In this document: piece after piece, positions 24,130 to 48,463 of the stretch
How the letters are laid out: every line of letters begins with the position of its first letter
Numbering within the stretch: the stretch's first letter is position 1
DNA from: a phage
Reading direction: 5' to 3' (one strand)
Length of the DNA stretch: 64,000 bases
Assembly: GCA_036253495.1 (NCBI GenBank)
Contig: GCA_036253495.1_4125.1
Notes under the pieces: generated by a model
What the model was told of the DNA's origin: nothing
Database searches by the model: none
The model's input: only the letters and a program-made list of their open reading frames with translations
Made by a program: the position numbers and the translations under genes

Positions 24130-24138
24130 GGAGTTCAT

Positions 24139-34515: not shown

Positions 34516-35592
34516 ATGATTGACAATGCTATTATACAAAGTGTGAATTTATTTTTATCAAGTGATGCATTGTCAATCTCTAATACTATTTGGAAAGAGA
34601 AATACAAATGGCTTCCAGAAAATTTTAGTTTTGATATGCTGGAAACTGATTCGTATAGTGAAAATAATAACAATATTCATGGTTTTGTCCGAACTGGTAA
34701 AAATGGATATACAAAAATGTATTTTCATAGTTGTGATGTTTGTAAACAAGATTCGTCATTGCACGGTCTTGGTATTTTCGCATCTGTACGAAGTAATTTG
34801 GAAAAAGGTATAGTTGCATGTGATTGTTCCATAACTTCAAAACTAACAAAATATCAATATATTGCTAAAATTTATAAAAAATGTTTGGAACTTGGATACG
34901 AATTTATTGGATTTAATGAGGATTGGGAATCAACACAGCCAAAAGGACTAATCCATCTAAAATTATCATGTAATATTCATGGATTATGGAATACAACAAC
35001 AATTGATAATTTACTGTTCCACTCTAAAGGTTGTAAGGAATGTGGGAGACGTAAAATCAGCCAAGCTAGAACAATTGGAGATGAATTCCATATAAATGAG
35101 TTTTTCAAAACAGGTAAATTTAGTAAAGGTAGTAAGTTTTGGCGTTCTGACCGTTTGAATACTTATGGTTACAAGAATTATTGGTTTTATGAATGTTCAG
35201 TATGTCATATGGTAGTTGAATCACAGATTGGTAACCTAAAGGATGGAAAAGTACCATGTTTATGTAATGGAAACATCCAACAACAATGCTATATAAATTT
35301 AGTACTTGACAATAATATTCCAATTGCATTAAAATATGGTATAGCAAACAACTTCACAACGAGAGAAAAATCTCAAAATAAGCATTCAATCTATGATATT
35401 GTAAACAGTGGTGTTTGGGAATTTGAAACAGTATCATTGTGTAAATCAGCAGAAGCGGAATGTAAGAGAATTTTCTCACCAGTACTTGAAGCTCGTGAAA
35501 TGAAAGATGGATATACGGAAACTACATCACCATTAGATATTGACAAAATCATTGAAATATATGAGAATTGGGGTGGTGTGCGAATAAAATAA
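34516..35592 (+). CDS. Cys-rich hypothetical protein
   Basis: 358 aa; several Cys pairs (CDVC, CKEC, CSVC); no confident family assignment. Confidence 0.6.
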   Translation: MIDNAIIQSVNLFLSSDALSISNTIWKEKYKWLPENFSFDMLETDSYSENNNNIHGFVRTGKNGYTKMYFHSCDVCKQDSSLHGLGIFASVRSNLEKGIVACDCSITSKLTKYQYIAKIYKKCLELGYEFIGFNEDWESTQPKGLIHLKLSCNIHGLWNTTTIDNLLFHSKGCKECGRRKISQARTIGDEFHINEFFKTGKFSKGSKFWRSDRLNTYGYKNYWFYECSVCHMVVESQIGNLKDGKVPCLCNGNIQQQCYINLVLDNNIPIALKYGIANNFTTREKSQNKHSIYDIVNSGVWEFETVSLCKSAEAECKRIFSPVLEAREMKDGYTETTSPLDIDKIIEIYENWGGVRIK

Positions 35593-36404: not shown

Positions 36405-36800
36405 ATGATATATACATTGCATACAAAAGACAAAATGATCGTAATCAATGGAAGTACTCGTATGTTCCAAAGATATGGTATGCGTCTAGTGACTTATTGT
36501 GATAAAGTTCAATTCTATGATGATAAGAAAGGAATCAATTCAGTACTGAAAGATAGGTATCACTATAGTCGTGATATCCAGAGAGCAGATGATTTGGATT
36601 CTTTTAGTGGTAAAGTGTACGTTGTTGTTTGTGATGATAGTAAAGGTGATGTGTTACCTTTCAGTACTTTTGCATGTAATATGTTCTTTAGAAATGAACT
36701 CCCTGATTCATTCAGAATGATTGAGGTTGATTTTGATACCATACCGTGTGGAATTCGTTTAGAATTTCTTAACGCACTGGTATCAATTAGGGAGTACTGA
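36405..36800 (+). CDS. hypothetical protein
   Basis: ORF track; AAGGA RBS. Confidence 0.65.
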   Translation: MIYTLHTKDKMIVINGSTRMFQRYGMRLVTYCDKVQFYDDKKGINSVLKDRYHYSRDIQRADDLDSFSGKVYVVVCDDSKGDVLPFSTFACNMFFRNELPDSFRMIEVDFDTIPCGIRLEFLNALVSIREY

Positions 36801-37183
36801 TGAAACTTATTACTGTGTACACAATTGTATATAATAACGAAATCAAGTACGTGTTAAATGCAAACTTACACCACACTAGAGGTGAAACAAAGTTACAACA
36901 GAACAGTACAGAAATCTCTCACTACTGGCTGGATGATGATTCAGTTGAAGTGTATATTGATGGTCGTGCTGAATACTATGATGCAGTTTTCTTTGAAGAT
37001 TTAGATAAATCGAACGAATTCTTCATTTATGTCAGTACTGACCAATATTATACGCATTCTTTGTTTGACATTACCAACACTTCTGTGTATGATACAGGTA
37101 TGGTTAGGTTACTGAAGATAGACCCAACTCTGTACAACAAAGAAACAATTTACGGTTTACTAGATTTTACAAGAAAATTGTAG
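36800..37183 (+). CDS. hypothetical protein
   Basis: ORF track; ATGA overlap. Confidence 0.65.
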   Translation: MKLITVYTIVYNNEIKYVLNANLHHTRGETKLQQNSTEISHYWLDDDSVEVYIDGRAEYYDAVFFEDLDKSNEFFIYVSTDQYYTHSLFDITNTSVYDTGMVRLLKIDPTLYNKETIYGLLDFTRKL

Positions 37184-37208
37184 ACAAATACGAACACTGT
37201 GATATAAT
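37181..37208 (+). promoter_or_regulatory. sigma70-like early promoter (TAGACA-16-TGnTATAAT)
   Basis: TAGACA, 16 nt spacer, GTGATATAAT; about 36 nt upstream of the ClpP-like gene. Confidence 0.5.
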
Positions 37209-37243
37209 ACTCACATCAATGAAACAATAGAGGAAAATATACA

Positions 37244-37939
37244 ATGACTCAACAATTTATGTTTGGTGGTTATGCGAATGGTGAAACAACTAACATTTCA
37301 ATTCCATATGTAGTTGAAAAAGTTAATGGCAACGAACGTACTTATGATCTAGCATCTCGTATGATGCAAGACCGTATCATTTTCCTTGATACTGATTTCA
37401 ACGACCAGATGGCACATATCATCAAGCAACAATTGGTGTGGTTGGATTCTCAAGGTTCTGAACCAATTACTCTTTATATTTCCTCGCCGGGTGGTAGTGT
37501 TCATGCAGGTTTGGGTATTTCTGATATTGCTAAATCTTGTGTATCACCAATCCGCACAGTAGTGATGGGTTATGCAGCATCAATGGGTTGCTACACACAA
37601 TCAGTAGTTGGTACTAAAGGTTATCGTCTTGGTGGTAAACGCTCGTACTTTATGTGTCACCAAGTAAGTTCTGGTACACAAGGTCTGATCACTGATCAGA
37701 AAATTGCACTAAAACACTCTGATGCATTGAACACATTGCTGACGAAAGAAATCGCTGAAGCTGTAGGTGTTTCTCATGAAAAACTACTAGAAGATGCGGA
37801 CCGCGATTTGTGGTTGAGTGCAGATGAAGCACTTGAGTATGGTGAACTTGGATTTATCGATGGTATTATCCTTGGTCCACGTAATGAAAAAGGTCAATAC
37901 CTAGTTAAACGTCGCGGTGGCGTGGAAGAGTGGGTATAA
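37244..37939 (+). CDS. clpP: ClpP-family serine peptidase
   Basis: 231 aa; ClpP signature blocks ISSPGGSV.AGLGI and MGYAASMG (catalytic Ser), His in MCHQ, Asp in DADRDLW. Confidence 0.85.
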   Translation: MTQQFMFGGYANGETTNISIPYVVEKVNGNERTYDLASRMMQDRIIFLDTDFNDQMAHIIKQQLVWLDSQGSEPITLYISSPGGSVHAGLGISDIAKSCVSPIRTVVMGYAASMGCYTQSVVGTKGYRLGGKRSYFMCHQVSSGTQGLITDQKIALKHSDALNTLLTKEIAEAVGVSHEKLLEDADRDLWLSADEALEYGELGFIDGIILGPRNEKGQYLVKRRGGVEEWV

Positions 37940-37965
37940 TTCAGTACTAAAACTTAAAATATATT

Positions 37966-37990
37966 ATGCCTCACTATGTGGGGCATTTTC
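37966..37990 (+). terminator. rho-independent terminator
   Basis: Hairpin tgcctca/tggggca followed by TTTTC. Confidence 0.55.
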
Positions 37991-38002
37991 TAAGGAGTTA
38001 AA

Positions 38003-38296
38003 ATGTCAAAGAAACTTGTACGAAACTCTAGCACTGAAGAAGTTGAAATTCTTGATGATTCGGAATTCATCAGTACTGCACTAGAGCAGATCAGTACTCA
38101 AGCGTTAGCACTAAAAGACATTAAAGAATCAGAAGACCTACTGGTTGGTATGGCTGAAATTCTTGAATTGATGCAAGAAGTTCTTATGAAGAACAATATT
38201 AAACCAATTGATGCGGTGCAATATGCTGCAAATTTGCGAGCCGAACACGGTTCATTCAACGAGAAAAAAGCTGTCAGCACAGAAGATAAGGAATAA
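38003..38296 (+). CDS. hypothetical acidic protein
   Basis: ORF track; AGGAG RBS. Confidence 0.65.
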   Translation: MSKKLVRNSSTEEVEILDDSEFISTALEQISTQALALKDIKESEDLLVGMAEILELMQEVLMKNNIKPIDAVQYAANLRAEHGSFNEKKAVSTEDKE

Positions 38297-38300
38297 TACA

Positions 38301-38747
38301 ATGGCTAATGAACAACACAAAGAAGGTTATGACGCGTTTAAAAACAAAGTAGTTTTTAACAATGAACAGCTAAAATCACAGCACCCACTATTCCGTCAAG
38401 GCTATCGTGCTGCACAAGCTGACGCAATGAAGAAAAACAATGTAACCTTCCCAACTACATTGTTTGATATTCCTAAACGTCCTGAAGTGTTTAAGGCTGA
38501 TTGGACTGATATTATGGCAGCAACTAAACGACCACGTTTTGCAAAACTACATACCGACGAAGGTAAATGGCTGCTAATGGGTATCATGAAAGCTGTTGAA
38601 AAACGTGCACATACTATTGTCCGTTATCGTGATGTTGTTACTATGGTAGATGAAGCATTTGATATTGTACTTCAGTACGGCTACGATGAAGGTGTATTAA
38701 CTGTTGAAGATTGTCAACAATATAACTATACACCGACCGAAAAGTGA
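38301..38747 (+). CDS. hypothetical protein
   Basis: Track ORF 38208..38747 trimmed to ATG with AAGGA RBS. Confidence 0.65.
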   Translation: MANEQHKEGYDAFKNKVVFNNEQLKSQHPLFRQGYRAAQADAMKKNNVTFPTTLFDIPKRPEVFKADWTDIMAATKRPRFAKLHTDEGKWLLMGIMKAVEKRAHTIVRYRDVVTMVDEAFDIVLQYGYDEGVLTVEDCQQYNYTPTEK

Positions 38748-38757
38748 TTAAATAAAT

Positions 38758-38780
38758 GGGAGTCATTGTACTCCCTTTTC
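38758..38780 (+). terminator. rho-independent terminator
   Basis: Hairpin gggagt/actccc followed by TTTTC. Confidence 0.6.
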
Positions 38781-38795
38781 GCATAGGTAAATTAT

Positions 38796-39149
38796 ATGAG
38801 TAAAGTTTACATTTCTGTTGATATGGATTATTCATCTGATCCTATATGGACTTCTAAAACAGGAGACTATTGGATTAATGATGATCTTGATGGATACAAA
38901 AAACTTTTTAGTGCAGGTTTAATGCATAGCTTGTATGTTTACCAGCAAATTTGGGAGGCATCCAATTGGAGTTCATATCTGTCACCATCGGATATGATAA
39001 ATGTGGAAGCACCTGGGATGTTTATGATCCAACAAGCATCACATATATTAAGTCAAGCTTGTGCAGTACAAATAAAGAAGGAGTTTCCTGACTGGCACGT
39101 CTTTTATTGGTGCGACGCAAGTAACACTAGGAAGGAGGTAATACTTTAA
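38796..39149 (+). CDS. hypothetical protein
   Basis: ORF track. Confidence 0.65.
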   Translation: MSKVYISVDMDYSSDPIWTSKTGDYWINDDLDGYKKLFSAGLMHSLYVYQQIWEASNWSSYLSPSDMINVEAPGMFMIQQASHILSQACAVQIKKEFPDWHVFYWCDASNTRKEVIL

Positions 39150-39658
39150 TGATCTTTAAAATCACTAAAGAAAGCAGTATTGAGTTCTCAAAAAATATGT
39201 TTTTAATAAATGAGTACGCAAAAAATATCAGTACTGAAGCAATAGAAATAACCAAGAAATGGTACGATAATTATTTGAATACAAGAAAATGGTATCATAA
39301 AATTAATGATTACCAGTGGTTTCTTACTACTATAACTGAGGGAGATGGACTAGTATTAAGATATAATTGTATGAATTTTAATTACATTGGACTTGATTTC
39401 AATTCAACAATTGTTGGTATGGATATTAAAAAAATTAGAAAATTAACATCAATCAATACTAAGGAAATATATGAAGAATCGGGTAAAGTTTGGGAAGCTG
39501 TAACATTTATGATTAAGCACTCGTCATTTATGTATAGAAATTATGATATTAGTATGGATTTACAAGGTCGTAATATCCCATATACTTTAGATGAAAAACA
39601 ATATCATCACATGAAAATGTGTGAAGAGATGGTTGAATCTTTAAAATTAAAGGAGTGA
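39149..39658 (+). CDS. hypothetical protein
   Basis: ORF track; ATGA overlap. Confidence 0.65.
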   Translation: MIFKITKESSIEFSKNMFLINEYAKNISTEAIEITKKWYDNYLNTRKWYHKINDYQWFLTTITEGDGLVLRYNCMNFNYIGLDFNSTIVGMDIKKIRKLTSINTKEIYEESGKVWEAVTFMIKHSSFMYRNYDISMDLQGRNIPYTLDEKQYHHMKMCEEMVESLKLKE

Positions 39659-39659
39659 T

Positions 39660-40181
39660 ATGAACTATAATCAATTATCACAAGAAGATACTGATATTTG
39701 GCTAAAGAACGTAAACAATACGTTGGAACTTGTGCGACAATGTATTTCGGAAGCTGACCGTGTATCAGACGAAGCTAAAGAAAAAACATACAAACACTTT
39801 CACCGTAATATCTTCATGAAAATTTATGCACTTACTATGTATAATATGTACAAACCATCTGATATTTTTATTGGGTTGTATAGTGGGGCGATGTTCACAT
39901 TAGGTGGGATTTTTTCAGATACTGGTCGTACATTAGAACAAAACGAAAAAGATGTTATCGTGGCAGTTGATAAGATTATGAATAAGGAAGTGGATTTCAT
40001 TCTGGAAATCGTTCGTTGCTGGAATGTTTATAGCTCAAAACCATTTGACATTACACAGAAAGATATAGTAGACTATATGCGTATTTTACGTACACATCAG
40101 ATCTGTAAAGAACTATTAACCAATTTAGGGACATATGATGAAACATACAACGTGGTTGAAGATAGCCAGTGTCGTTGCTGA
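39660..40181 (+). CDS. hypothetical protein
   Basis: ORF track. Confidence 0.65.
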   Translation: MNYNQLSQEDTDIWLKNVNNTLELVRQCISEADRVSDEAKEKTYKHFHRNIFMKIYALTMYNMYKPSDIFIGLYSGAMFTLGGIFSDTGRTLEQNEKDVIVAVDKIMNKEVDFILEIVRCWNVYSSKPFDITQKDIVDYMRILRTHQICKELLTNLGTYDETYNVVEDSQCRC

Positions 40182-40617
40182 GGAAAGTAAGTGTCTTTCC
40201 CAGAAAGTAGGTTGTGTTATTGTAAAGAATAACCGAGTATTGAGTACTGGATATAACGGTACACCATCAAAGCAACCTAACTGTTGTGATGTTAATAAAC
40301 ATCTCGTAAACAATGGTCAATTTCAAAATTGGATTGATGAAGATGCAAAACACTTACATCACGAGTGGAGCAACATTCATGAGATCCATGCGGAAATGAA
40401 TGCATTACTATATAGTTCACCACAAGAACGTCAGGGTGCAACACTTTACACCACACTCCAACCGTGCTATACTTGTTCTAAGTTAATCGCTGGTAGTGGT
40501 ATTTCTCGTGTAATTTACGAAAAATCGTATCCTCGCACTCCACCAGAAGCTATTAAAGTACTGGAAGATGCTGGGATTATTGTAAATTGTATCTATGATA
40601 ATGGACTCAATAAATGA
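40135..40617 (+). CDS. cd: dCMP deaminase
   Basis: 160 aa; zinc-binding deaminase motifs HAEMNAL and PCYTCS. Confidence 0.85.
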   Translation: MMKHTTWLKIASVVAEESKCLSQKVGCVIVKNNRVLSTGYNGTPSKQPNCCDVNKHLVNNGQFQNWIDEDAKHLHHEWSNIHEIHAEMNALLYSSPQERQGATLYTTLQPCYTCSKLIAGSGISRVIYEKSYPRTPPEAIKVLEDAGIIVNCIYDNGLNK

Positions 40618-40874
40618 CAATGGTATATTTGTTTCTAGGTTGTATTGTTATATTTGTATTGTTTGCTATCTATTGTTTAGTTGATACTGATTATTCAATG
40701 CGTGGTAATAAGAATTATCAAGTACGTTTTTCCCCGCATAATAACAAGTACTACATTGTGAATGTTAGCCACACTACTGGTCGTGAAATGAAAGTAACTG
40801 GTAGATTTGGCTTTACAATTTACTATGATAACCAAATTGATGTTGATTATGTTGTTGAAAAGTTAAATAAATGA
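40614..40874 (+). CDS. small membrane protein
   Basis: 86 aa; N-terminal hydrophobic helix; ATGA overlap. Confidence 0.6.
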   Translation: MTMVYLFLGCIVIFVLFAIYCLVDTDYSMRGNKNYQVRFSPHNNKYYIVNVSHTTGREMKVTGRFGFTIYYDNQIDVDYVVEKLNK

Positions 40875-40875
40875 G

Positions 40876-40901
40876 AAAAGGAGCCTATGGCTCCTTTTTT
40901 A
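40876..40901. terminator. bidirectional rho-independent terminator between convergent genes
   Basis: aaaaggagcctatggctcctttttt: symmetric hairpin flanked by A-run and T-run. Confidence 0.7.
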
Positions 40902-41276
40902 TTATGCTTTTTTACGTAGGATGTATTGTCCATTATGTAATTTAATTTTGTGAATCATGTACATAGTGCAAAACCCTTCAATACCTGCTTCTTCATCTTT
41001 CAATTTAATGAAGAAAGTATTATCTCTTAGGCTTTCTACAAGGCTTTCATCTGAATCTTCGAAATTCATGATATATGAATCTTTATTTCTATACACCATC
41101 TGAACATATTCATAAACCTTACCGCTTTCATCGATTAGATCATAAGTATGTGCTGAACGTTGTTTTAAAATATATAGTTTACCAAGAATAGCTGCTCCAT
41201 TAATTTTAGCACCAGTAATTTCGATACCATTAATAGAAAAAGGAAGTCTTCCGGTTAATGCAATTGGTTTACCCAT
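40902..41276 (-). CDS. hypothetical protein, paralog of the N-terminal domain of the Ig-like repeat protein
   Basis: Track ORF 40902..41318 trimmed to internal ATG giving MGKPIALTGRLPF..., matching the N termini of its two paralogs; GGAGAAG RBS. Confidence 0.6.
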   Translation of the reverse strand: MGKPIALTGRLPFSINGIEITGAKINGAAILGKLYILKQRSAHTYDLIDESGKVYEYVQMVYRNKDSYIMNFEDSDESLVESLRDNTFFIKLKDEEAGIEGFCTMYMIHKIKLHNGQYILRKKA

Positions 41277-41336
41277 TATTATTATACTTCTCCAAGTAAA
41301 GTGCATGATAATTTTCATGCACTATATTATTAAAAA

Positions 41337-43763
41337 TTAAGCACTGATTGTTACAGTTGCAGTATCAGTTTTATTGCCATTCGCAGTAGTCACTGTAATG
41401 ACTACAGTACCTTCTTCTAGAGCAGTTACTAATCCATCATCACTAATAGATACTTTAGTAGGTTCATCTGCACTATAAGTTACTGATTTGTTAGTTGCGT
41501 TAGCTGGAAGAACTTCTGGAACTAGTTGAACTGTTTTAGTACCTGATAGTGAAAGATCAGTGGCTTTAGGTGTTAAACCAACGCTGGATACTGGTACTGG
41601 AATATTAACAGTTACAGCACATTTTGCAGTTTTTGCACCATCAGTAGTTTTTACAGTGATATCAGCAGTACCGTTTGCAACAGCAGTGATTAAACCACTT
41701 GCACTAACAGTTGCGACCCCAGCAGCAGAAGTACTATAAGTTACTGCTTTGTTAGTTGCATTAGCTGGTAGTACAGTTGGTGTTAGTTGTTGAGTTGCAC
41801 CAACAGATGTTAAAGTTGCTGTTGTTGGAGAAACAGAAACACTAGCTACAGGAACTGGGATTGACACAGTAATGACACCTTGACCTGTTTTACCACTTCC
41901 ATCAGCGGCAGTTGCGATAATGTTTGCAGTACCGTTAGTTAACGCAGTTACAACACCAGTACTAGCATCAACTTTCGCTACAGCAGGTGCACTAGAAGAC
42001 CATGTTACAGCTTTATTAGTTGCGTTAGCTGGAAGAACTTCAGCAGCCATTGCTTGAGTTGCGTTAACAGCAGTCAATGTTTTAGTTGCTGGTGTAACAT
42101 TAATAGTTGTTACTGGAACTGGAATTGCTACAGTTACTGCACAAACCGCAGTTTTTGCACCATCAGCGGTTGTTACGGTGATGTTAGCAGTGCCATTTGC
42201 TACAGCAGTTATCAATCCTGAAGTGCTAACAGTTGCTACACCCGCATTAGAAGTACTATAAGTTACTGCTTTATTGGTTGCATTAGTTGGTGCAACCGAT
42301 GGTGTTAGTTGTTGTGTTGCACCAACAGATCTTAAAGTTGCTGTTGTTGGAGAAACAGAAACACCAGTTACTGGTACTGGAATATTAACAGTTACAGCAC
42401 AAACTTTACTAAAGCCACCATCAGCAGTAGTAGCCGTGATATTAGCAGTGCCATTCGCTACCGCAGTGATTAAACCACTTGTACTAACGGTTGCAACACC
42501 AGCAGCAGAAGTTGCGTATGTTACTGCTTTGTTACGAGCATTAGCTGGTAGAACAGTTGCAGTTAATTGCTGTGTTGCACCAACAGAAGTTAATGAAGCG
42601 GTTGCAGGTGTTAGGTTAATACCAGTTACTGGGATCGTCACATCAATAATTGATTGTGCGGTTTTTTCACCATCAATAGTTGTTACGGTAATAGTGGCAG
42701 TACCATTATTAACAGAAGTTACTAAACCGTCATCATCAACTTCTGCTACTGTAGGTGCAGAAGATTCATAACGAACTTCCTGATTTGATGCAGTTCTTGG
42801 TAGTACCGTTGCTGTTAATGGTTCATTTGCACCAATAGTAGTGAATGTATATGTTTCAGGTGTTAACGTAACACCAGTTACTGCTGTTTGAACTTTAATA
42901 GAAGAAGTATCAGTAAATGAACCATCTTCAGATGTTGCAGTAATAGTAACATCACCATTGGATACACCTGTTACCAACCCAGAATCTTTATCAACTGTTG
43001 CAACGGATGGAGCAGATGAAGTCCATATAACTTTCTTGTCTGTTGCTGAGGCCGGAGTAACTTCAGCTAACAATTGTTGAGTTGACCCAACGTTTACAGT
43101 TGCAGATTTAGGAGAAACGGTAACACCAGTAACACCAGTACTGACAACGATAGAACACACATCTGTGAAATCACCATCGTGAGTTGTTACGGTTACATCA
43201 GCATTGCCATTTGCAAGTGCAGTTGCTAGACCTGTTTGAGCATCAACTTCAACGATTGTAGGAGCAGATGAAGAGTAGGTTACTGCCTTGTCTTTTGCAT
43301 TAGATGGAACTACTTGGGCTGATAGTTGTTTTGTTGCACCAACTTTAAGAGATGCATCTTTGGGTGTAATTACAACACCAGTTACGGGGATATCAGCATT
43401 AACATAATCGCGTTTTACGATACGACCATTATTTAATTTAATAACACGACCCATATAAAGCATAGTATACCCCATGCTAATACCATCATCAACATAGATC
43501 ATGAATGAATTGTCTTGAACCATATTAATTGCGTCTGCTGGTTCAACAGAATTTGGAATGTCGATACCACGAGTATCATACCAACGCATGGAAACTTTGT
43601 AATAGATATCACCATTATCATTGATGAGATCATACACGTTACCGGAACGTTGACGGTTAATATATAAAGTTTCCGTTAACACCTTACCATCGATTTTAGC
43701 GACAGAAACTTTAATACCACCAATACCAAAAGGCAATTTACCTTCACTAGATATTGCTTTCAT
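41337..43763 (-). CDS. virion-associated Ig-like (Big_2-type) repeat protein, Hoc-like decoration/adhesin candidate
   Basis: 808 aa; N-terminal ~130 aa domain shared with flanking ORFs, then about seven tandem ~90 aa repeats with VTGV..P.......G.TQQL...V.P.NATNK.VT..SS....ATV...GL.TAV.NGTA.IT pattern; late promoter upstream. Confidence 0.75.
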   Translation of the reverse strand: MKAISSEGKLPFGIGGIKVSVAKIDGKVLTETLYINRQRSGNVYDLINDNGDIYYKVSMRWYDTRGIDIPNSVEPADAINMVQDNSFMIYVDDGISMGYTMLYMGRVIKLNNGRIVKRDYVNADIPVTGVVITPKDASLKVGATKQLSAQVVPSNAKDKAVTYSSSAPTIVEVDAQTGLATALANGNADVTVTTHDGDFTDVCSIVVSTGVTGVTVSPKSATVNVGSTQQLLAEVTPASATDKKVIWTSSAPSVATVDKDSGLVTGVSNGDVTITATSEDGSFTDTSSIKVQTAVTGVTLTPETYTFTTIGANEPLTATVLPRTASNQEVRYESSAPTVAEVDDDGLVTSVNNGTATITVTTIDGEKTAQSIIDVTIPVTGINLTPATASLTSVGATQQLTATVLPANARNKAVTYATSAAGVATVSTSGLITAVANGTANITATTADGGFSKVCAVTVNIPVPVTGVSVSPTTATLRSVGATQQLTPSVAPTNATNKAVTYSTSNAGVATVSTSGLITAVANGTANITVTTADGAKTAVCAVTVAIPVPVTTINVTPATKTLTAVNATQAMAAEVLPANATNKAVTWSSSAPAVAKVDASTGVVTALTNGTANIIATAADGSGKTGQGVITVSIPVPVASVSVSPTTATLTSVGATQQLTPTVLPANATNKAVTYSTSAAGVATVSASGLITAVANGTADITVKTTDGAKTAKCAVTVNIPVPVSSVGLTPKATDLSLSGTKTVQLVPEVLPANATNKSVTYSADEPTKVSISDDGLVTALEEGTVVITVTTANGNKTDTATVTISA
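41500..43300 (-). repeat. in-frame tandem coding repeats (Ig-like domain array)
   Basis: Near-identical DNA segments recur at about 270 nt spacing; these also create the spurious antisense ORF 42274..42771. Confidence 0.6.
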
Positions 43764-43799
43764 ATACTTTCCTTTATAAATTGTATTGTAGTGTTATAT

Positions 43800-43807
43800 T
43801 ATTTATA
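43800..43807 (-). promoter_or_regulatory. T4-type late promoter TATAAATA
   Basis: Reverse complement of tatttata, about 36 nt upstream of the minus-strand start at 43763. Confidence 0.55.
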
Positions 43808-43831
43808 TTATACCAAAAGTATTTTAGGATT

Positions 43832-43854
43832 AAAAAAAGGAGTCCGAAGACTCC
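43832..43854 (-). terminator. rho-independent terminator (minus strand)
   Basis: Hairpin ggagtc cgaa gactcc; the A-run on + reads as a T-run on minus. Confidence 0.65.
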
Positions 43855-43867
43855 TTAAAATATAAAG

Positions 43868-44383
43868 TTATTGGAAACGAGCATACGGTGGGAATCTGGT
43901 TTGGTCAGGCCAATCTTTCGGAGAGAAGTAAGCAGTGAATTGCATTTTATCATTTGAATAAAGAACAAAATCATCTGGCTTTATTATAACTTTAGACAAC
44001 GAATTTGGCTCCACGTTCGTTCTTCTGAAAATTATTTCACCATTATGTAATTTTATTTTATTACTTTGATATTGAATACCAAAACCATACTTATTATTAA
44101 TAGCATCAGCTTCTTTTATGCAAAATGTATTATTTGCTAAAGATTTAGCAATTTCAGCATCGTCATCATCATACAACAATGTTGATTTATCTTTATTTCT
44201 ACCTGTGATTTTTATATCTTTGTAAATCTTGAAATTTTCAGATATTAAATCATATGAATCGAATGTTCTTTGTTTTATAACATACAATTCTTTAACAAAT
44301 ACTTGCCCTTCTATCTTTGCAGCAGTAACCTGCAATCCACCTATAACAAATGGAAATTGATCTAAGCCAGCTATTGGTTTCAT
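43868..44383 (-). CDS. hypothetical protein, paralog of the N-terminal domain of the Ig-like repeat protein
   Basis: 171 aa; MKPIAGLDQFPFVIGGLQVTAAKIEGQV...IKLHNGEII parallels the other two paralogs. Confidence 0.65.
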   Translation of the reverse strand: MKPIAGLDQFPFVIGGLQVTAAKIEGQVFVKELYVIKQRTFDSYDLISENFKIYKDIKITGRNKDKSTLLYDDDDAEIAKSLANNTFCIKEADAINNKYGFGIQYQSNKIKLHNGEIIFRRTNVEPNSLSKVIIKPDDFVLYSNDKMQFTAYFSPKDWPDQTRFPPYARFQ

Positions 44384-44517
44384 AACATCTCCTTACCTTA
44401 AAAATGGGATTGTAAACTGCCTCCCAATATGATACCATAGTTCAAATGGTCAATTGGTAAATCAATGAACTTAACAAAAACACTTGATACTACAGTCATA
44501 ATTGTTCAGTTTTGCAC

Positions 44518-44546
44518 TTGACATAATTGATCAATTATTGTACTAT
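44518..44546 (+). promoter_or_regulatory. sigma70-like promoter (TTGACA-17-TACTAT)
   Basis: Consensus -35 TTGACA, 17 nt spacer, -10 TACTAT, about 35 nt upstream of 44582. Confidence 0.5.
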
Positions 44547-44581
44547 TATTTATGTTCCTTAACTCAAATCCGAGGTAATCA

Positions 44582-45187
44582 ATGAAACGAATCTTGAAAG
44601 AGATTGTACAAACCGTTGTTTTAATCGCTGCATTAAACTTTCCGGCAGCGGCAGAAGTTTCAAAAAAATCATCTGTTTTTCTATTAAATGAACATGTTGT
44701 GTCAATTGATGGTGAACTAAATGATGAAACTGTACAAGAAGTGAAGAAGTTGTGGAAAGAAACAAGATTTAAAATTTTAACAATTACATCACCTGGTGGA
44801 GATTTTGATGCAGGATTAGATTTGGGATTGTTTGTGGCTGCTAAAAAGTTAACTGTTTATGTCCCAAAGCAATGTAATTCGTCTTGTAGTCTGGTTTTTT
44901 TCTCTGCATCATCTGAACGTAGGGATATGAGTGATACCGCAGTGATGGGTTTACATAACATCTCACTAGTATCTACGAATGGTGCAGATCCAGATACGAC
45001 ATTCGTTTCAGTTAGACAGTTGATGGAGTTTACACATCAAGTCTCAACTAAAGTTGGGTATCTTTTTACACTGTACGCACATAACGGTATCCCCGCTGAA
45101 ACACTCATTGATATCAGTACTAAACATGGTGAGGATATCGTTGTCTTACGAAGATCAGATCTCGTTAAATGGGGAATCATTCAATAA
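44582..45187 (+). CDS. secreted ClpP/S49-like (crotonase-fold) protein, possibly a divergent or inactive peptidase
   Basis: 201 aa; N-terminal signal-peptide-like segment; ITSPGGDFDAGLDLGLFV resembles the ClpP SPGG block, but the catalytic Ser context is not canonical. Confidence 0.4.
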   Translation: MKRILKEIVQTVVLIAALNFPAAAEVSKKSSVFLLNEHVVSIDGELNDETVQEVKKLWKETRFKILTITSPGGDFDAGLDLGLFVAAKKLTVYVPKQCNSSCSLVFFSASSERRDMSDTAVMGLHNISLVSTNGADPDTTFVSVRQLMEFTHQVSTKVGYLFTLYAHNGIPAETLIDISTKHGEDIVVLRRSDLVKWGIIQ

Positions 45188-45314
45188 AAAGTTGTATTTT
45201 TTATGAAGCAATGATATAATCCTAATACTAATTCATGATTTTGGTTAAGGGTGGTGTACTGCCACCCGATTTTAAGATATAATGGTTGTACATTATCAAC
45301 CAAGGAAACAAAAA

Positions 45315-45578
45315 ATGACAGAATTATCACATCTTCAAGGCTGGACAGAGTTCATCTTCTATGCTACTATAGTTACATATGGAATCATTGTTCTTTTATC
45401 AGTGATTATGGCAAGTGATTTCAAGAGTGGTTTTCTTGAAGAAAATGGTGAGTTTTCTTCTAAAACTGAAAAGTACTTTTATTATTTCTTTAAAATTTCG
45501 TATACAATTTTACTCATAATTTTGGGTTTACTATTGTATTTCATGTACACAATCTTAGATGTAATGCATCTTTTATAA
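45315..45578 (+). CDS. small membrane protein
   Basis: Track ORF 45282..45578 trimmed to ATG with AAGGA RBS; two hydrophobic helices. Confidence 0.55.
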   Translation: MTELSHLQGWTEFIFYATIVTYGIIVLLSVIMASDFKSGFLEENGEFSSKTEKYFYYFFKISYTILLIILGLLLYFMYTILDVMHLL

Positions 45579-45589
45579 CGGAGATATCA

Positions 45590-46192
45590 ATGACTTGTAT
45601 TATTGCTTACACTGATGGTAACACATCTTTTATCGCGGGTGACAAACTGGGTAGTAATGGTTTCACTAAAGCAATTCAAACTGAACCAAAAGTGTTTGAA
45701 AAAGAATTCATCAAAATCGATGAAAGTGGATTGAATCGCACCAAAGAAGTTATGGCAATGGGATACACGTCGAGCTTCCGCATGGGACAATTGCTGACGT
45801 ATAAACTTGATTTACCTGAACAGCAATCAAACCAAACATTCTCACAGTACTTAGTACTTGAGGTAATCCCACGTATTCGCACACTCTTCAAAGAAGAATG
45901 GGGTGCTCGTGATACAACTCAAGACGTTGGTGGTGGACAGTTTATTATTCTCCACAATCATACAATTTATGAAGTTCAAGAGGATTTTTCAGTACTCCAA
46001 CCTAAGACACAAATTACATCTGTTGGTAGTGGTACATATCATGCAATTGCAGCTATGCAAGCATATATTGAAGTTCAAAAAGAAACAGGTGTTAAGATGG
46101 TTGATCGCACCGATTCTATCTTCAAAATTGTAAGTGATAATGTTACCAGCGTTAGTGCTGAGTATGATTTACTAAGCTATCCTAAGCTGTAA
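45590..46192 (+). CDS. HslV/proteasome-like Ntn-hydrolase peptidase candidate
   Basis: 200 aa; Met-Thr N terminus then CIIAYTDG.TSFIAGD and later SVGSGTYHAIAAMQAY, resembling HslV blocks. Confidence 0.5.
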   Translation: MTCIIAYTDGNTSFIAGDKLGSNGFTKAIQTEPKVFEKEFIKIDESGLNRTKEVMAMGYTSSFRMGQLLTYKLDLPEQQSNQTFSQYLVLEVIPRIRTLFKEEWGARDTTQDVGGGQFIILHNHTIYEVQEDFSVLQPKTQITSVGSGTYHAIAAMQAYIEVQKETGVKMVDRTDSIFKIVSDNVTSVSAEYDLLSYPKL

Positions 46193-46200
46193 TACAAAAA

Positions 46201-46228
46201 AGGGGATTCTTATAATCCCCTATATTAA
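46201..46228 (+). terminator. probable rho-independent terminator
   Basis: Perfect 8 bp hairpin aggggatt/aatcccct; downstream tract is AT-rich rather than a clean T-run. Confidence 0.4.
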
Positions 46229-46252
46229 TTTAATAAGGAGAGTATTATAACT

Positions 46253-46465
46253 ATGATAACTATCAATTACTTTTCACTATGCTTTGTTTATTTTGTTGTT
46301 GTATTTCTAGCAGTTGTAGCGTACAATAATATTAAATGTATATATAAAATTATCAAAAACAAAGAGAAATTCAATGGATGGATGATATATCACATTGTCA
46401 TCTCGGTTGTGTGTATCTTATTTGTATACGATTTGAGTTCATTAGGTACAGTAGGTAAGCTATGA
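46253..46465 (+). CDS. small membrane protein
   Basis: 70 aa, two hydrophobic helices. Confidence 0.55.
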   Translation: MITINYFSLCFVYFVVVFLAVVAYNNIKCIYKIIKNKEKFNGWMIYHIVISVVCILFVYDLSSLGTVGKL

Positions 46466-47214
46466 TTTCTGACTCTTTTATAAAAAATAAAGGTAATAAA
46501 CGTGTATTGGTTATTTCCGGTGCAGGTCTATCCGTTGAAAGTGGGATGGAACCGTTTCGCATGGACGATGGCCTATGGGATCAATTTCAAATAAATGATG
46601 TATGTAACATTGCACGTCTTAGTACTAAGTATCATTTAGTACACACTTTCTATAATACATTACGTGTTAAAATGAAAGATTGTGTTCCTAATGATATGCA
46701 TTATTATATCAAATCTATAGAAGATACATACGGTGATAACTTTTTACATATGACTTCGAATATGGATGATCTCTATACTCGTATTGGTGGCAATGAATTA
46801 AAGTTACATGGTAATTTAAAAGAAGTTATTGAGAATTTTACAATTGGTGGTGACGATTATAGTATTGTGGATTGTGGTTATGAACCGTACATTCCGAAAG
46901 AAGGTGTCTTTGCGAAACCAAACGTAGTGTTCATTGGTGAATATTATCGTTATGTTGATGGTGAAAAACTCCCAATATACGATGAGCGTAATTTAGTATT
47001 GCAATCCTTAACAGAAGATGATACAGTTGTAGTCATTGGTAGCAGTGACACAGTACTGAAATGGTCACATCTGGTTGCGTGTTTACCATGCTTTAGTGTT
47101 AATATCAACATCAGAAAAAATGATAACGATTTCATGTTCAATGAAAAAATTATAAAACCAGCTACAAAAGCGATTCCAGTACTGGAAACTATCATTAAGG
47201 ATAGAATGAAATGA
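46462..47214 (+). CDS. Sir2-family NAD-dependent protein (deacylase/ADP-ribosyltransferase/NADase family)
   Basis: 250 aa; Rossmann motif ISGAGLSVESGMEPFR and catalytic-region LHGN; ATGA overlaps at both ends. Confidence 0.75.
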   Translation: MISDSFIKNKGNKRVLVISGAGLSVESGMEPFRMDDGLWDQFQINDVCNIARLSTKYHLVHTFYNTLRVKMKDCVPNDMHYYIKSIEDTYGDNFLHMTSNMDDLYTRIGGNELKLHGNLKEVIENFTIGGDDYSIVDCGYEPYIPKEGVFAKPNVVFIGEYYRYVDGEKLPIYDERNLVLQSLTEDDTVVVIGSSDTVLKWSHLVACLPCFSVNINIRKNDNDFMFNEKIIKPATKAIPVLETIIKDRMK

Positions 47215-47759
47215 TTCGAGAAGTACCTCTAGGTGAGTATGGTAAACGAGCAAACTTTGTATTCTGTTACTTCTTTGCTCGAAATTGTAACCCATATAAA
47301 GGTTATGATTTAAATGATATCCCTGTTGTGAATCTGGTATTACTCCAGCTTCGTTGGGATGGTTTACTGGGTGGTTGTGGTGGAACAGTTGAAGATACCG
47401 ATGCCACCTTAGAAGATGCACTATTCCGTGAAATTCAGGAAGAGATGGATTATAATATTTTCATCGAACAACTGAAACCATTGAAAACTTACGAACTATA
47501 TCCAGGAGCACATACTCATAGCTATAGTTATGAAGTTACTTACGAAGAATTGAAAGCGATTCGCGATGGATACTGTACTGCTAAACATGCAAGTGCAGAA
47601 GTGGCTGGTGTTAATTTATGTCACATTTCTCGTTATTCAAAGGGACAAAACCGAGAAGCAGGATATAATAATCTTATGACACAAAACTTCATAGGAACTG
47701 CTAAAATGGAATTAGAACATCTTGTTCAATCCGAGAATTTACTGATTAGTTACTTATAA
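47211..47759 (+). CDS. Nudix hydrolase-like protein
   Basis: 182 aa; Nudix-box-like GGCGGTVED...REIQEEMD with slightly non-canonical spacing. Confidence 0.55.
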   Translation: MIREVPLGEYGKRANFVFCYFFARNCNPYKGYDLNDIPVVNLVLLQLRWDGLLGGCGGTVEDTDATLEDALFREIQEEMDYNIFIEQLKPLKTYELYPGAHTHSYSYEVTYEELKAIRDGYCTAKHASAEVAGVNLCHISRYSKGQNREAGYNNLMTQNFIGTAKMELEHLVQSENLLISYL

Positions 47760-48399: not shown

Positions 48400-48463
48400 G
48401 AAGTGTCTGAGTCTATAATCTACCGTAGAGCACAAGGATGTGCTCATAACTCAAGGATGTTTT

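What the first reader, a model, noticed from the sequence alone, without database searches (positions are those of the whole stretch)
37244..46192. Three peptidase-like genes in one phage region: ClpP-like, secreted ClpP/S49-like, and HslV-like
The ClpP-like ORF (37244-37939) has an intact Ser-His-Asp context and its own promoter. A second ORF (44582-45187) has a signal peptide and a ClpP-like SPGG block but a non-canonical catalytic serine region. A third (45590-46192) begins Met-Thr and shows HslV-like blocks (IAGD, GSG..A.AA). None sits in a head-morphogenesis context, so they may remodel host proteolysis rather than process the capsid.
Basis: partly seen in the sequence, partly recalled or inferred. 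Interest (0 to 1): 0.55.

Follow-up and report, generated by a model that had tools for sequence, protein, structure and literature searches.

The report
Three accessory proteases of a jumbo phage
A ~350-kb E. coli jumbo phage of the Rak2/121Q group carries three genuine protease genes (a true ClpP, an exported ClpP-fold enzyme and a proteasome/HslV-like enzyme) that are separate from its capsid-maturation protease. All three are already annotated in related phages, and the ClpP most likely works with the phage's own ClpA-like motor and ClpS-like adaptor, not with host partners.

Summary
All three ORFs are real, conserved genes at the stated coordinates. The window is an Asteriusvirus (Rak2/121Q-like jumbo coliphage) and the three proteins are 99.5-100% identical to phage A4.

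- ORF1 is a bona fide ClpP with an intact Ser113-His139-Asp188 triad.
- ORF2 is a Sec-signal-bearing member of an uncurated ClpP-fold family with an invariant SxGG...CxSxC...H signature. Its Ser and His fall on the ClpP catalytic columns.
- ORF3 is a group-I proteasome homolog (Thr1-Asp17-Lys33, HslV/BPH fold, pLDDT 91).

None is the head protease. Relatives have a T4 gp21-type S77 prohead protease beside portal, scaffold and capsid genes, more than 115 kb from the ClpP.

All three occur in a near-identical set of about 70 genomes, so the phage carries its own ClpSAP machine. No phage HslU or ClpX was found.

All three genes have been annotated as proteases in 121Q since 2014. Phage proteasome homologs and host-directed jumbo-phage ClpP were discussed in 2021. 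The finding is correct but ordinary, and function remains untested.

The parts
37181..37208 (+). sigma-70-like promoter candidate for ORF1 (TAGACA, 16-nt spacer, TG-extended TATAAT); a GAGGA Shine-Dalgarno site follows at about 37230
   Evidence: It scores 11/12 matches, the joint-best in 36700-46600, but the number of sites in the region is not above the shuffled expectation.
37244..37939 (+). ORF1: ClpP (MEROPS S14) proteolytic subunit. Triad Ser113/His139/Asp188, conserved N-terminal axial-loop residues, and a clade-specific basic C-terminal tail (residues ~210-231, ...RRGGVEEWV).
44518..44546 (+). sigma-70-like promoter candidate for the ORF2 / small membrane protein / ORF3 unit (TTGACA-17-TACTAT); a GAGGT Shine-Dalgarno site precedes the ATG
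44582..45187 (+). ORF2: exported ClpP-fold Ser/His peptidase candidate. Signal peptide at about residues 1-24, SPGG 70-73, C98-N-S100-S-C102, H125.
45315..45578 (+). Small conserved two-TM membrane protein (87 aa counted from the conserved Met) lying between ORF2 and ORF3. It is syntenic in 121Q (gp474), UE-S1 and A4.
   Evidence: no Pfam match
45590..46192 (+). ORF3: proteasome-like Ntn hydrolase (HslV/BPH-like, group I). Thr2 becomes Thr1 after Met removal; Asp18, Lys34, Gly58 and G146-S-G148 are present. It has a clade-specific hairpin insertion at residues ~37-56 and a long, low-confidence pore loop at 104-117.
46201..46221 (.). GC-rich hairpin (8-bp stem) immediately after the ORF3 stop codon, a candidate terminator. 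The T-run is better on the minus strand.

Best explanation
The region holds three independent accessory peptidase genes of a Rak2/121Q-like jumbo coliphage. None of them is the capsid-maturation protease.

(1) ORF1 is a catalytically competent ClpP. It most likely forms the proteolytic chamber of a phage-encoded ClpS-ClpA-ClpP machine. The same genomes carry a 762-aa ClpA-like double-ring AAA+ unfoldase that keeps the ClpP-docking [I/L/V]-G-[L/M/V/F] loop, and a ClpS-like adaptor. All three are encoded at dispersed loci. The machine would unfold and degrade selected host or phage proteins in the cytoplasm during infection.

(2) ORF2 is exported through Sec. It is an ATP-independent Ser/His peptidase of the ClpP/NfeD fold that acts in the periplasm or at the envelope. 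Its two invariant cysteines flank the nucleophile (C-x-S-x-C) and plausibly form a disulfide there.

(3) ORF3 is a Thr1 proteasome-type peptidase of a family widespread in phages. It has a long pore loop like BPH, and no phage HslU was found, so it probably works as a self-compartmentalised peptidase without a dedicated phage unfoldase.

Shown: family, fold, catalytic residues, genomic context and clade-wide co-occurrence. Inferred: physical ClpA-ClpP pairing, export, oligomeric state, substrates and timing.
For: Identity of ORF1:
- Pfam, NCBIfam and PDB all give ClpP.
- The triad and the axial-loop residues P21, V23, E25, E31 and R32 are invariant.
- It scores far better against cellular ClpP models (E about 1e-46) than against the ClpP-related head-maturation model (5.9e-14, 52 bits against a cutoff of 120).

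Not the head protease:
- 121Q has a Peptidase_S77 gp21-like protease (E=1e-20) next to portal, scaffold and capsid genes, 119 kb from the ClpP.
- The phAPEC6 virion proteome lists that prohead protease. No other product named as a protease turned up in the text search of that paper (PMC7247149).

Phage partners:
- gp581 has the AAA + AAA_lid_9 + AAA_2 + ClpB_D2-small architecture.
- It is 45% identical to E. coli ClpA, with IGM at the IGL position. The equivalent tripeptide is LGL in A4, IGV in RaK2, VGF in XaC1 and IGF in MIJ3.
- gp48 passes the Pfam ClpS cutoff.

Co-occurrence: the ClpA-like gene is in 72 records, the ClpS-like gene in 72 records, and the ORF1-type ClpP shows the same genus profile (Escherichia 33-34, Klebsiella 10-11, Salmonella 8, Erwinia 8, Yersinia 4, and so on). 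A4, the window's near-identical relative, has the ClpA-like gene.

ORF2:
- The family has 1758 members at E<=1e-3.
- S70, G72, G73, C98, S100, C102 and H125 are invariant, and every member has an N-terminal hydrophobic segment.
- hhalign against ClpP gives probability 96% and E=2.9e-9, with Ser and His on the catalytic columns.
- The only PDB hits are ClpP and NfeD 1510-N.

ORF3:
- The family profile matches E. coli HslV from residue 1 (E=1.5e-9).
- The model has pLDDT 90.9.
- Foldseek top hits are HslV and BPH.
- 198 phage records hold a homolog.

No phage HslU or ClpX: the only hit in 77% of the 121Q genome is the D2 domain of gp581. Only 4 and 15 Escherichia phage records match HslU and ClpX respectively.
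Against: - There are no experimental data on any of these proteins.
- The ClpP, ClpA-like and ClpS-like genes are not adjacent, so pairing rests on co-occurrence and the docking loop alone.
- The phage ClpP clade has changed two conserved docking-pocket residues (E. coli F82 -> S/T/N, L114 -> G/T). It is therefore unclear which unfoldase, phage or host, actually docks.
- The docking tripeptide varies among phage ClpAs with no evident covariation with the pocket.
- The ORF2 structure model was poor (pLDDT 44.7), so its fold assignment rests on profiles only. Export is inferred from sequence features, without a dedicated predictor. The third triad position (D185) is not conserved in the family.
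- ORF3 could still use host HslU. I could not evaluate the interface.
- CBB ClpP was detected in virions by one peptide (PMC5259590).
Confidence: 0.7

Rival explanations
1. ORF1 is the phage's head (prohead) maturation protease, as RefSeq and PHROG-derived annotation labels it in 121Q, PBECO4, JP4 and others.
For: The best PHROG match is phrog_94 'head maturation protease' (E=1.2e-44). RefSeq names gp464 'head maturation protease'. The CBB ClpP homolog was seen in virion MS with a single peptide (PMC5259590).
Against: - It scores 52 bits against NCBIfam Clp_rel_HeadMat (cutoff 120), compared with about 157 bits against cellular ClpP models.
- It lies among nucleotide-metabolism genes, 119 kb from the head module in 121Q.
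- The clade has a dedicated T4 gp21-type Peptidase_S77 protease next to scaffold and capsid genes (PMC7247149, PMC7318152).
- It co-occurs with ClpA-like and ClpS-like genes.
Confidence: 0.05
2. The phage ClpP mainly works with host unfoldases (ClpX and/or ClpA), or mixes with host ClpP rings, redirecting host ATP-dependent proteolysis.
For: The axial N-terminal loop residues that contact the unfoldases are fully conserved with E. coli ClpP. Pocket residues Y62, I90, M92 and L189 are retained or conservatively replaced. Iyer et al. suggest that jumbo-phage ClpP and ClpS act on or with the host system (PMC7824862).
Against: Every genome that has this ClpP also has its own ClpA-like protein with a docking loop. 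Two pocket residues conserved in the cellular ClpPs sampled (F82, L114) are replaced throughout the phage clade, and a conserved C-terminal tail of about 22 residues has been added near the docking face.
Confidence: 0.2
3. ORF3 is a functional HslV that recruits host HslU to form a hybrid HslUV protease.
For: The best sequence and fold matches in the PDB are HslV. The M-T start is the same as in E. coli HslV. The host encodes HslU, and no phage HslU was found.
Against: - It falls far below the HslV equivalog cutoffs (20 bits against 137, 18.8 against 157.75).
- HslV has a short basic linker after H2, whereas ORF3 has a 14-residue loop, as in the unfoldase-independent BPH (PMC5777263).
- The HslV K28 position is not conserved (from the sequence, by ungapped alignment from Thr1).
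- The family also occurs in Geobacillus and Moorella phages, whose hosts are very different.
Confidence: 0.25
4. ORF2 is not a peptidase. It would be a catalytically inert or differently functioning ClpP/crotonase-fold protein, or else an S49 SppA-type signal-peptide peptidase.
For: Pfam and NCBIfam matches are all below threshold. The nucleophile motif is atypical (C-N-S-S-C). The Asp of the triad is not conserved. The structure model was poor. A4 annotates it only as 'ClpP/crotonase-like domain protein'.
Against: The Ser and His that align to the ClpP catalytic residues are invariant across 40 diverse family members down to 18-25% identity, as is the SxGG oxyanion block. ORF2 itself gave no SppA match, and only 1 of 40 family members gave a weak one. 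S49 and NfeD enzymes use Ser/Lys, not Ser/His.
Confidence: 0.1

Closest known systems
Bacterial ClpP / the E. coli ClpS-ClpA-ClpP (ClpAPS) N-degron protease
   Same: ORF1 has the ClpP domain, triad and axial loops. It is about 45% identical to its best cellular ClpP relatives and about 35% identical to E. coli ClpP. The same phage clade has a 45%-identical ClpA homolog with two AAA+ rings, an N-domain and a docking tripeptide, plus a protein with a ClpS domain.
   Different: - The genes are phage-borne and dispersed (in 121Q at 34 kb, 214 kb and 298 kb), not in a clpS-clpA operon.
- ClpP has altered docking-pocket residues (F82S, L114G), a basic C-terminal tail of about 22 residues and a 3-residue insertion.
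- The ClpS-like protein is 181 aa with a long N-terminal extension, whereas E. coli ClpS is 106 aa.
- ORF1 is below the NCBIfam ClpP equivalog cutoffs.
ClpP-related phage prohead (head maturation) proteases (NCBIfam NF045542; PHROG 94)
   Same: Same fold and a Ser/His active site; ORF1 hits PHROG 94 strongly.
   Different: ORF1 is below the NF045542 cutoff and is not in a head module. It is not fused to or adjacent to scaffold or capsid genes. The clade uses a T4 gp21-type S77 protease for head maturation.
HslV and BPH (beta-proteobacterial proteasome homolog)
   Same: ORF3 shares the Ntn fold, Thr1/Asp17/Lys33 and the GSG block. It has no propeptide beyond the initiator Met, and it is compact, lacking H5. 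Its best PDB fold matches have TM 0.6-0.73.
   Different: Sequence identity is 14-18%. It has a clade-specific insertion of about 16-20 residues in the S3/S4 hairpin. The pore loop is long, unlike HslV, but not strongly acidic, unlike BPH. It is encoded by a phage with no adjacent AAA+ gene.
Phage-associated proteasome homologs PPH / AAH / CPH (Fuchs, Alva & Lupas 2021, PMC8665760); PHROG 1040 'peptidase HslV family'
   Same: ORF3 is a group-I-type compact proteasome homolog carried by tailed phages. It matches PHROG 1040 (E=3.6e-21) and has homologs in 198 phage records.
   Different: It is not PPH (about 140 aa, lacking helix H2), because ORF3 is 200 aa with H1-H4. I could not test assignment to AAH or CPH because their reference alignments are not available here.
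NfeD/1510-N membrane proteases and SppA (clan SK, ClpP fold, envelope-located)
   Same: ORF2 has a ClpP fold by profile and is targeted to the envelope. It is ATP-independent in the sense that it has no docking partner. It gives weak hits to NfeD1b_N and to PDB 1510-N.
   Different: ORF2 has an invariant Ser/His pair where NfeD and SppA have a Ser/Lys dyad, and a unique C-x-S-x-C nucleophile motif. It is a single 200-aa domain with a cleavable-looking signal peptide. No stomatin partner gene was identified among the neighbouring genes. It is below every curated cutoff.

Membership tests
ClpP (Pfam PF00574 / MEROPS S14) | Domain match above the curated threshold over the full domain | tested here: met
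   ORF1: 143.7 bits against a cutoff of 20.2, covering profile positions 2-179 of 182. Full-length alignment to solved ClpPs, E=1.4e-37.
ClpP (Pfam PF00574 / MEROPS S14) | Ser-His-Asp catalytic triad at the canonical positions | tested here: met
   S113, H139 and D188 align to E. coli S97, H122 and D171 and are invariant in 19 sequences.
ClpP (Pfam PF00574 / MEROPS S14) | Hydrophobic docking pocket for the unfoldase IGF/IGL loops (E. coli Y60, Y62, F82, I90, M92, F112, L114, L189) | tested here: inconclusive
   Y62, I90 (V), M92, F112 (L) and L189 (I) are kept. F82 -> S and L114 -> G hold throughout the phage clade. Y60 is variable in cellular ClpPs as well.
ClpP (NCBIfam equivalog TIGR00493 / subfamily PRK00277) | Score above the equivalog or subfamily cutoff | tested here: not met
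   156.6 bits against 308.6, and 158.1 against 249. ORF1 is a divergent ClpP and not an equivalog of the cellular enzyme.
ClpP (Pfam PF00574 / MEROPS S14) | Tetradecameric barrel; activation by an AAA+ partner | not testable with these tools
   Needs biochemistry or multimer modelling.
ClpP-related head maturation protease (NF045542) | Score above cutoff, and location in the head module next to portal, scaffold and capsid genes | tested here: not met
   52.4 bits against 120. The neighbours are ligase, phosphoesterase and dCMP deaminase. In 121Q the head module, with its own S77 protease, is 119 kb away.
ClpAPS system (as a phage-encoded set) | Cognate double-ring ClpA with a ClpP-docking tripeptide loop in the same genome | tested here: met
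   121Q gp581 and A4_579: AAA + AAA_2 + ClpB_D2-small architecture, 45% identity to E. coli ClpA, IGM or LGL at the IGL position. The gene lies outside the window.
ClpAPS system (as a phage-encoded set) | ClpS adaptor domain in the same genome | tested here: met
   121Q gp48: Pfam ClpS 24.7 bits against a cutoff of 23. It is present in 72 Rak2-like records. The N-degron pocket residues were only partly assessed (the DD motif is kept).
HslV (NCBIfam TIGR03692 / NF003964) | Score above the equivalog cutoff | tested here: not met
   ORF3: 18.8 bits against 157.75, and 20 against 137; only residues 119-173 match.
HslV (NCBIfam TIGR03692 / NF003964) | Cognate HslU ATPase encoded alongside | tested here: not met
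   There is no HslU-like gene in the window or in the 77% of 121Q examined, apart from the ClpA-like D2 domain. Only 4 Escherichia phage records match HslU.
Proteasome-like Ntn hydrolases (PF00227 superfamily, group I) | N-terminal Thr nucleophile with Asp17, Lys33 and the oxyanion Gly; alpha-beta-beta-alpha sandwich fold | tested here: met
   T2, D18, K34, G146 and G148 are invariant and G58 nearly invariant in 27 sequences. The model has pLDDT 90.9. HslV, BPH and proteasome beta subunits are the top PDB fold hits. Some distant homologs carry PF00227.
[quoted passage not shown] | About 140 residues, lacking helix H2 | tested here: not met
   ORF3 is 200 aa, and its model has helices H1 63-72, H2 84-103, H3 149-166 and H4 170-184. 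The definition is from PMC8665760.
AAH / CPH proteasome homologs | Clustering with the published AAH or CPH reference sets | not testable with these tools
   The reference alignments are on Mendeley and the MPI Toolkit. They are not in the held supplements.
SppA / peptidase S49 | SppA domain match and a Ser-Lys dyad | tested here: not met
   ORF2 has no SppA hit. Only 1 of 40 family members gives a weak SppA_dom hit. The invariant partner of the Ser is His125.
NfeD (PF25145 NfeD1b_N / 1510-N) | Score above cutoff; Ser-Lys dyad; stomatin-operon context | tested here: not met
   14.6 bits against a cutoff of 40. The PDB 1510-N match is only E=5e-3 with the family profile. No stomatin/PHB gene was identified nearby.
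ClpP-fold superfamily (clan SK), for ORF2 | Significant profile-profile similarity, with the nucleophile Ser and general-base His on the catalytic columns | tested here: met
   hhalign of A3 against A4: probability 96.1%, E=2.9e-9, 163 columns; S100 aligns with S113 and H125 with H139. The PDB hits are exclusively ClpP and NfeD.

The most novel reading that the evidence does not exclude
Rak2-like jumbo phages run a self-contained ClpS-ClpA-ClpP degradation machine that is partly insulated from the host. Its ClpP has a rewired docking pocket (F82S, L114G) and an added C-terminal tail, so it would pair preferentially with the phage ClpA and not with host ClpX or ClpA. The phage could then destroy chosen host proteins, for example defence or stress proteins, through its own N-degron-type adaptor. 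In parallel, an exported ClpP-fold peptidase with a disulfide-clamped C-x-S-x-C nucleophile would act on envelope proteins, for example receptors, to give superinfection exclusion. No phage-encoded ClpAPS machine, and no member of the ORF2 family, has been characterised biochemically in the literature I could search.
Probability: 0.3. Interest if true: 0.55.

Novelty: already known. Interest (0 to 1): 0.3.

Why it matters
As it stands, this is a correct reading of genes that are already annotated in public records: 121Q gp464, gp473 and gp475, and A4_455, A4_467 and A4_469. Their general significance has also been discussed before, for host-directed ClpP and ClpS in jumbo phages and for proteasome homologs in phages.

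The practical value is modest.
- It corrects a widespread mislabel, 'head maturation protease', on the Rak2-clade ClpP.
- It shows that ClpP, a ClpA-like unfoldase and a ClpS-like adaptor travel together across about 70 jumbo-phage genomes.
- It defines a sequence signature (signal peptide, SxGG, CxSxC, H) for an uncurated exported ClpP-fold family of roughly 1,700 proteins.

If the phage ClpSAP set proved to be an orthogonal degradation machine aimed at host proteins, it would be a useful model for viral takeover of bacterial proteostasis. That remains untested.

Tried and rejected
- Single-sequence PDB searches for ORF2 and ORF3 gave nothing meaningful. Family profiles were needed.
No fold search was possible for ORF2.
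- The afdb50 fold library was unavailable, so I could not place ORF3 among the bacterial AAH or CPH groups. The supplements of the proteasome-homolog paper hold no sequences.
- I looked for covariation between the phage ClpA docking tripeptide and the altered ClpP pocket. The tripeptide varies (IGM, LGL, IGV, VGF, IGF) without a clear pattern, so I dropped a 'bump-and-hole' argument.
- I considered that ORF2, the small membrane protein and ORF3 might form one functional unit. They are syntenic in Asteriusviruses. However, ORF3 homologs occur without ORF2 in T5-like and other phages, and most Klebsiella Rak2-like phages have ORF2 without ORF3. Obligatory coupling is therefore unlikely.
- Literature searches for functional work on phage-encoded ClpP returned nothing. 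The genome papers on fEgEco12 and UE-S1 do not mention these genes.
- The promoter scan is not enriched over shuffled sequence, so promoter calls are only suggestive.
- The weak Pfam connectase (MJ0548_N) match of ORF3 covers residues 1-19 only (E=0.007), below threshold. I did not pursue it.

Full report
WHAT THE WINDOW IS. Megablast of 37000-46500 finds Escherichia phage A4 (355.5 kb, genus Asteriusvirus) at 98.6% identity over 37000-42329, and about 50 other Rak2/121Q-like jumbo phages at 77-84%. The three proteins are 100%, 99.5% and 100% identical to A4 proteins. The window is therefore a piece of an A4-like jumbo coliphage. G+C is 29-39% throughout.

OBSERVATION CHECK. The three ORFs exist at the stated coordinates. 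Each has a good Shine-Dalgarno site: GAGGA, GAGGT and GGAGA. ORF1 is preceded by TAGACA-16-TGaTATAAT (37181-37208) and ORF2 by TTGACA-17-TACTAT (44518-44546). These are among the best matches in the region, but the total number of promoter-like sites does not exceed the shuffled expectation (41 against 42.9). 'Own promoter' is therefore plausible and not shown. ORF3 starts 11 nt after a small conserved two-TM gene (45315-45578) and is followed by a hairpin at 46201-46221. ORF2, the small gene and ORF3 thus look like one transcription unit.

ORF1 (37244-37939) IS A TRUE ClpP.
- Pfam CLP_protease gives E=7.7e-42, and the NCBIfam cellular ClpP models give about 1e-46.
- It aligns over its full length to solved ClpPs (1y7o, E=1.4e-37).
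- In an alignment with E. coli ClpP, eight Rak2-clade homologs and nine more distant ones, S113, H139 and D188 are invariant. These correspond to E. coli S97, H122 and D171. The axial-loop residues P21, V23, E25, E31 and R32 are also invariant.
- Its relatives are a tight phage clade (60-91% identity). Identity then drops to about 45% with cellular ClpPs.
- The clade has several specific features. The cellular docking-pocket residues F82 and L114 are replaced (S/T/N and G/T). There is a 3-residue insertion before GFIDGI. There is also a conserved basic C-terminal tail ending RRGGVEEWV.

ORF1 IS NOT THE HEAD PROTEASE. RefSeq and PHROG-based pipelines call it 'head maturation protease'. Against the NCBIfam ClpP-related head-maturation model it scores only 52 bits (cutoff 120). 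Its neighbours are DNA ligase, metallophosphoesterase and dCMP deaminase. In 121Q the head module lies at 330.7-336.8 kb, whereas the ClpP is at 214.4 kb. That module comprises portal gp598, the capsid maturation protease gp601 (Pfam Peptidase_S77, E=1e-20), scaffold gp602 and major head protein gp603. The phAPEC6 virion proteome lists this 'prohead core scaffold and protease' next to the capsid protein (PMC7247149), and PA5oct has the same arrangement (PMC7318152). The only contrary hint is one ClpP peptide in CBB virions (PMC5259590).

THE PHAGE CARRIES ITS OWN PARTNERS. Reading the rest of the 121Q record showed gp581 'ClpA-like' (762 aa) and gp48 'ClpS'.
- gp581 has the AAA + AAA_lid_9 + AAA_2 + ClpB_D2-small architecture. 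It is 45% identical to E. coli ClpA (324 of 727 aligned residues). It has IGM where ClpA has the ClpP-docking IGL.
- A4, RaK2, XaC1 and the PA5oct-like MIJ3 have LGL, IGV, VGF and IGF at this position. These proteins are therefore protease-coupled unfoldases and not ClpB-like disaggregases.
- gp48 passes the Pfam ClpS cutoff (24.7 bits against 23).
- The distributions coincide. The ClpA-like gene is in 72 records and the ClpS-like gene in 72 records. The ORF1-type ClpP has the same genus profile: Escherichia 33-34, Klebsiella 10-11, Salmonella 8, Erwinia 8, Yersinia 4, Pectobacterium 2, Cronobacter 2, plus Serratia and Xanthomonas.
- By contrast, E. coli ClpX and HslU find only 15 and 4 Escherichia phage records. 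In the 77% of 121Q that I hold, their only hit is the D2 ring of gp581.

The most economical reading is a clade-wide, phage-encoded ClpS-ClpA-ClpP system. Physical pairing is inferred, not shown. The changed pocket residues leave open whether host unfoldases can also dock.

ORF2 (44582-45187) IS AN EXPORTED ClpP-FOLD Ser/His PROTEIN OF AN UNCURATED FAMILY.
- Curated libraries give only sub-threshold ClpP and NfeD hits. PHROG 26024 'protease' matches end to end (E=2.4e-60).
- The word-indexed search found 6 relatives. The exhaustive profile search found 1758 at E<=1e-3.
- In a 40-sequence alignment reaching down to 18-25% identity, the invariant residues are S70, G72, G73, C98, S100, C102 and H125. 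Every member has an N-terminal hydrophobic segment.
- ORF2's own N-terminus is MKR, then a hydrophobic stretch at 8-20, then AAA|E. C98 and C102 are its only two cysteines.
- hhalign against the ClpP alignment gives probability 96% and E=2.9e-9 over 163 columns. It puts S100 on the ClpP Ser, H125 on the His and D185 on the Asp. D185 is not conserved in the family.
- With the large profile, the PDB hits are only ClpP (2.8e-4) and the NfeD 1510-N protease (5e-3).
- Distant members are bacterial (Aliiglaciecola, Vogesella). Where they are named, they are called 'ClpP class serine protease' or 'membrane-bound ClpP family serine protease'.
- Among phages the family is confined to 48 Rak2-like records. 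It evolves fast: 42% identity between A4 and 121Q, compared with 79% for ORF3 and 90% for ORF1.
- In 121Q, fEgEco12, RaK2 and XaC1 it lies about 3-4 kb downstream of the ClpP gene (coordinates).
The AF2 model was too poor to use.

ORF3 (45590-46192) IS A PROTEASOME-TYPE Ntn HYDROLASE OF A WIDESPREAD PHAGE FAMILY.
- PHROG 1040 'peptidase HslV family' matches at E=3.6e-21. The HslV equivalog models give only 19-20 bits.
- In 27 homologs M1, T2, C3, D18, K34, G146 and G148 are invariant, and G58 is nearly invariant. This is the Thr1/Asp17/Lys33/oxyanion-Gly/GSG set of the proteasome family (PMC8665760).
- The family profile aligns to E. coli HslV from residue 1 (E=1.5e-9). Next come actinobacterial proteasome beta subunits and BPH.
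- The AF2 model is confident (pLDDT 90.9, pTM 0.87). Foldseek ranks HslV and BPH first (TM 0.6-0.73), and many phage proteins match in BFVD (TM 0.7-0.8).
- Homologs occur in 198 phage records, including T5-like Epseptimaviruses and Vibrio, Aeromonas, Geobacillus and Moorella phages.
- Fuchs, Alva and Lupas (2021) already described the phage-borne proteasome homologs PPH, AAH and CPH. ORF3 is not PPH, because it has H1-H4 and 200 aa. Assignment to AAH or CPH could not be tested.
- Local peculiarities are an Asteriusvirus-specific insertion that extends the S3/S4 hairpin (residues ~37-56) and a 14-residue, low-confidence loop after H2 (104-117, WGARDTTQDVGGGQ). In HslV this 'pore loop' is a short basic linker. 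In the unfoldase-independent BPH it is long (PMC5777263). Together with the lack of a phage HslU, this makes a stand-alone peptidase somewhat more likely than a host-HslU hybrid, though the latter is not excluded.

COMPARISON WITH WHAT IS KNOWN, AND NOVELTY. 121Q's original 2014 record annotates gp464 'protease (ClpP-like)', gp473 'protease (ClpP-like)', gp475 'protease (ClpYQ-like)', gp581 'ClpA-like' and gp48 'ClpS'. A4 annotates the same three genes. Iyer et al. (2021) explicitly list ClpP as the most prominent jumbo-phage peptidase likely deployed against the host. They also mention phage ClpS, ClpA and ClpX (PMC7824862). The Atu_ph07 paper notes that ClpA is conserved in Rak2-like phages (PMC6102473). 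I found no functional study. The finding is therefore correct but already known at the level of annotation and hypothesis. This analysis adds four things:
- refutation of the head-protease label;
- the clade-wide ClpP/ClpA/ClpS co-occurrence and the retained docking loop;
- the pocket and tail changes in the phage ClpP;
- a residue-level definition of the ORF2 family.

VERDICT. Observation confirmed; interpretation partly supported; novelty 'already known'; interest 0.3. The most novel reading not excluded is an orthogonal phage ClpSAP machine plus an exported, disulfide-clamped ClpP-fold peptidase. I give that reading a probability of about 0.3.

Noticed in passing
window 55555-58530: The anaerobic ribonucleotide reductase gene nrdD is split into two ORFs (55555-56523 and 57646-58530). 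They correspond exactly to residues 1-314 and 315-601 of the intact 121Q NrdD. The insert of about 1.1 kb between them encodes a GIY-YIG/HTH homing-endonuclease-like ORF (56783-57622). This looks like an intron or mobile insertion, but no Rfam group I intron match was found, even at a permissive threshold.
   Followed up: partly
window 34516-35592: A 358-aa ORF with a CapR homology domain (Pfam E=1.9e-18) sits between the DNA ligase and metallophosphoesterase genes. The insertion is absent from A4 and 121Q, where those two genes are adjacent, but an ORF occupies the same position in UE-S1. It is probably a mobile or accessory gene, and it shows that the window is not identical to A4.
   Followed up: partly
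window 387-1799: A 470-aa ORF (TTG start) carries a methyl-accepting chemotaxis protein signalling domain (MCPsignal, E=7e-37), which is an unusual domain for a phage gene.
   Followed up: no
window 40902-44383 (minus strand): Three consecutive minus-strand genes (138, 808 and 171 aa) share a similar N-terminal domain of about 130 aa. The middle one carries 8 Big_2 Ig-like repeats (Pfam E=4e-134). Nucleotide similarity to phage A4 breaks off inside it (at about 42330), and the locus differs in size among relatives. In 121Q the homolog is annotated as a virion structural protein with an Ig domain. This is a hypervariable surface-decoration locus that separates ORF1 from ORF2.
   Followed up: partly
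window 46462-47759: Immediately downstream of ORF3 is an overlapping gene pair: a Sir2-family protein (46462-47214, Pfam SIR2 E=4.6e-19) and a Nudt16-like Nudix hydrolase (47211-47759). This is an NAD/ADP-ribose-related pair conserved in 121Q, UE-S1 and A4. It is followed by a PIN-PhoH fusion protein (48440-49903).
   Followed up: no
window 22700-25851: A T4-type RNA ligase 1 (22700-23845) and a polynucleotide kinase/phosphatase (24919-25851) lie close together. This is the classical tRNA-repair pair that counters anticodon nucleases.
   Followed up: no
window 45315-45578: A small conserved two-TM membrane protein gene is wedged between the exported ClpP-like gene and the HslV-like gene. It is syntenic in 121Q (gp474), UE-S1 and A4, with 37-38% identity between lineages. 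It has no Pfam match and its function is unknown.
   Followed up: partly
L011:5257-7545 (121Q gp581); L008:34461-35006 (121Q gp48); L013:101-2386 (A4_579): Outside the window, the same phage clade encodes a full-length ClpA-like unfoldase with a ClpP-docking tripeptide and a 181-aa ClpS-domain protein next to a KTSC/DnaJ-like gene. Each is present in 72 Rak2-like records, the same set of genera as the ClpP.
   Followed up: yes
window 59545-62244: An 899-aa ORF has no Pfam match at E<=1e-3. 121Q has two similar-sized hypothetical proteins here (gp499 and gp501). These are large conserved genes of unknown function.
   Followed up: no
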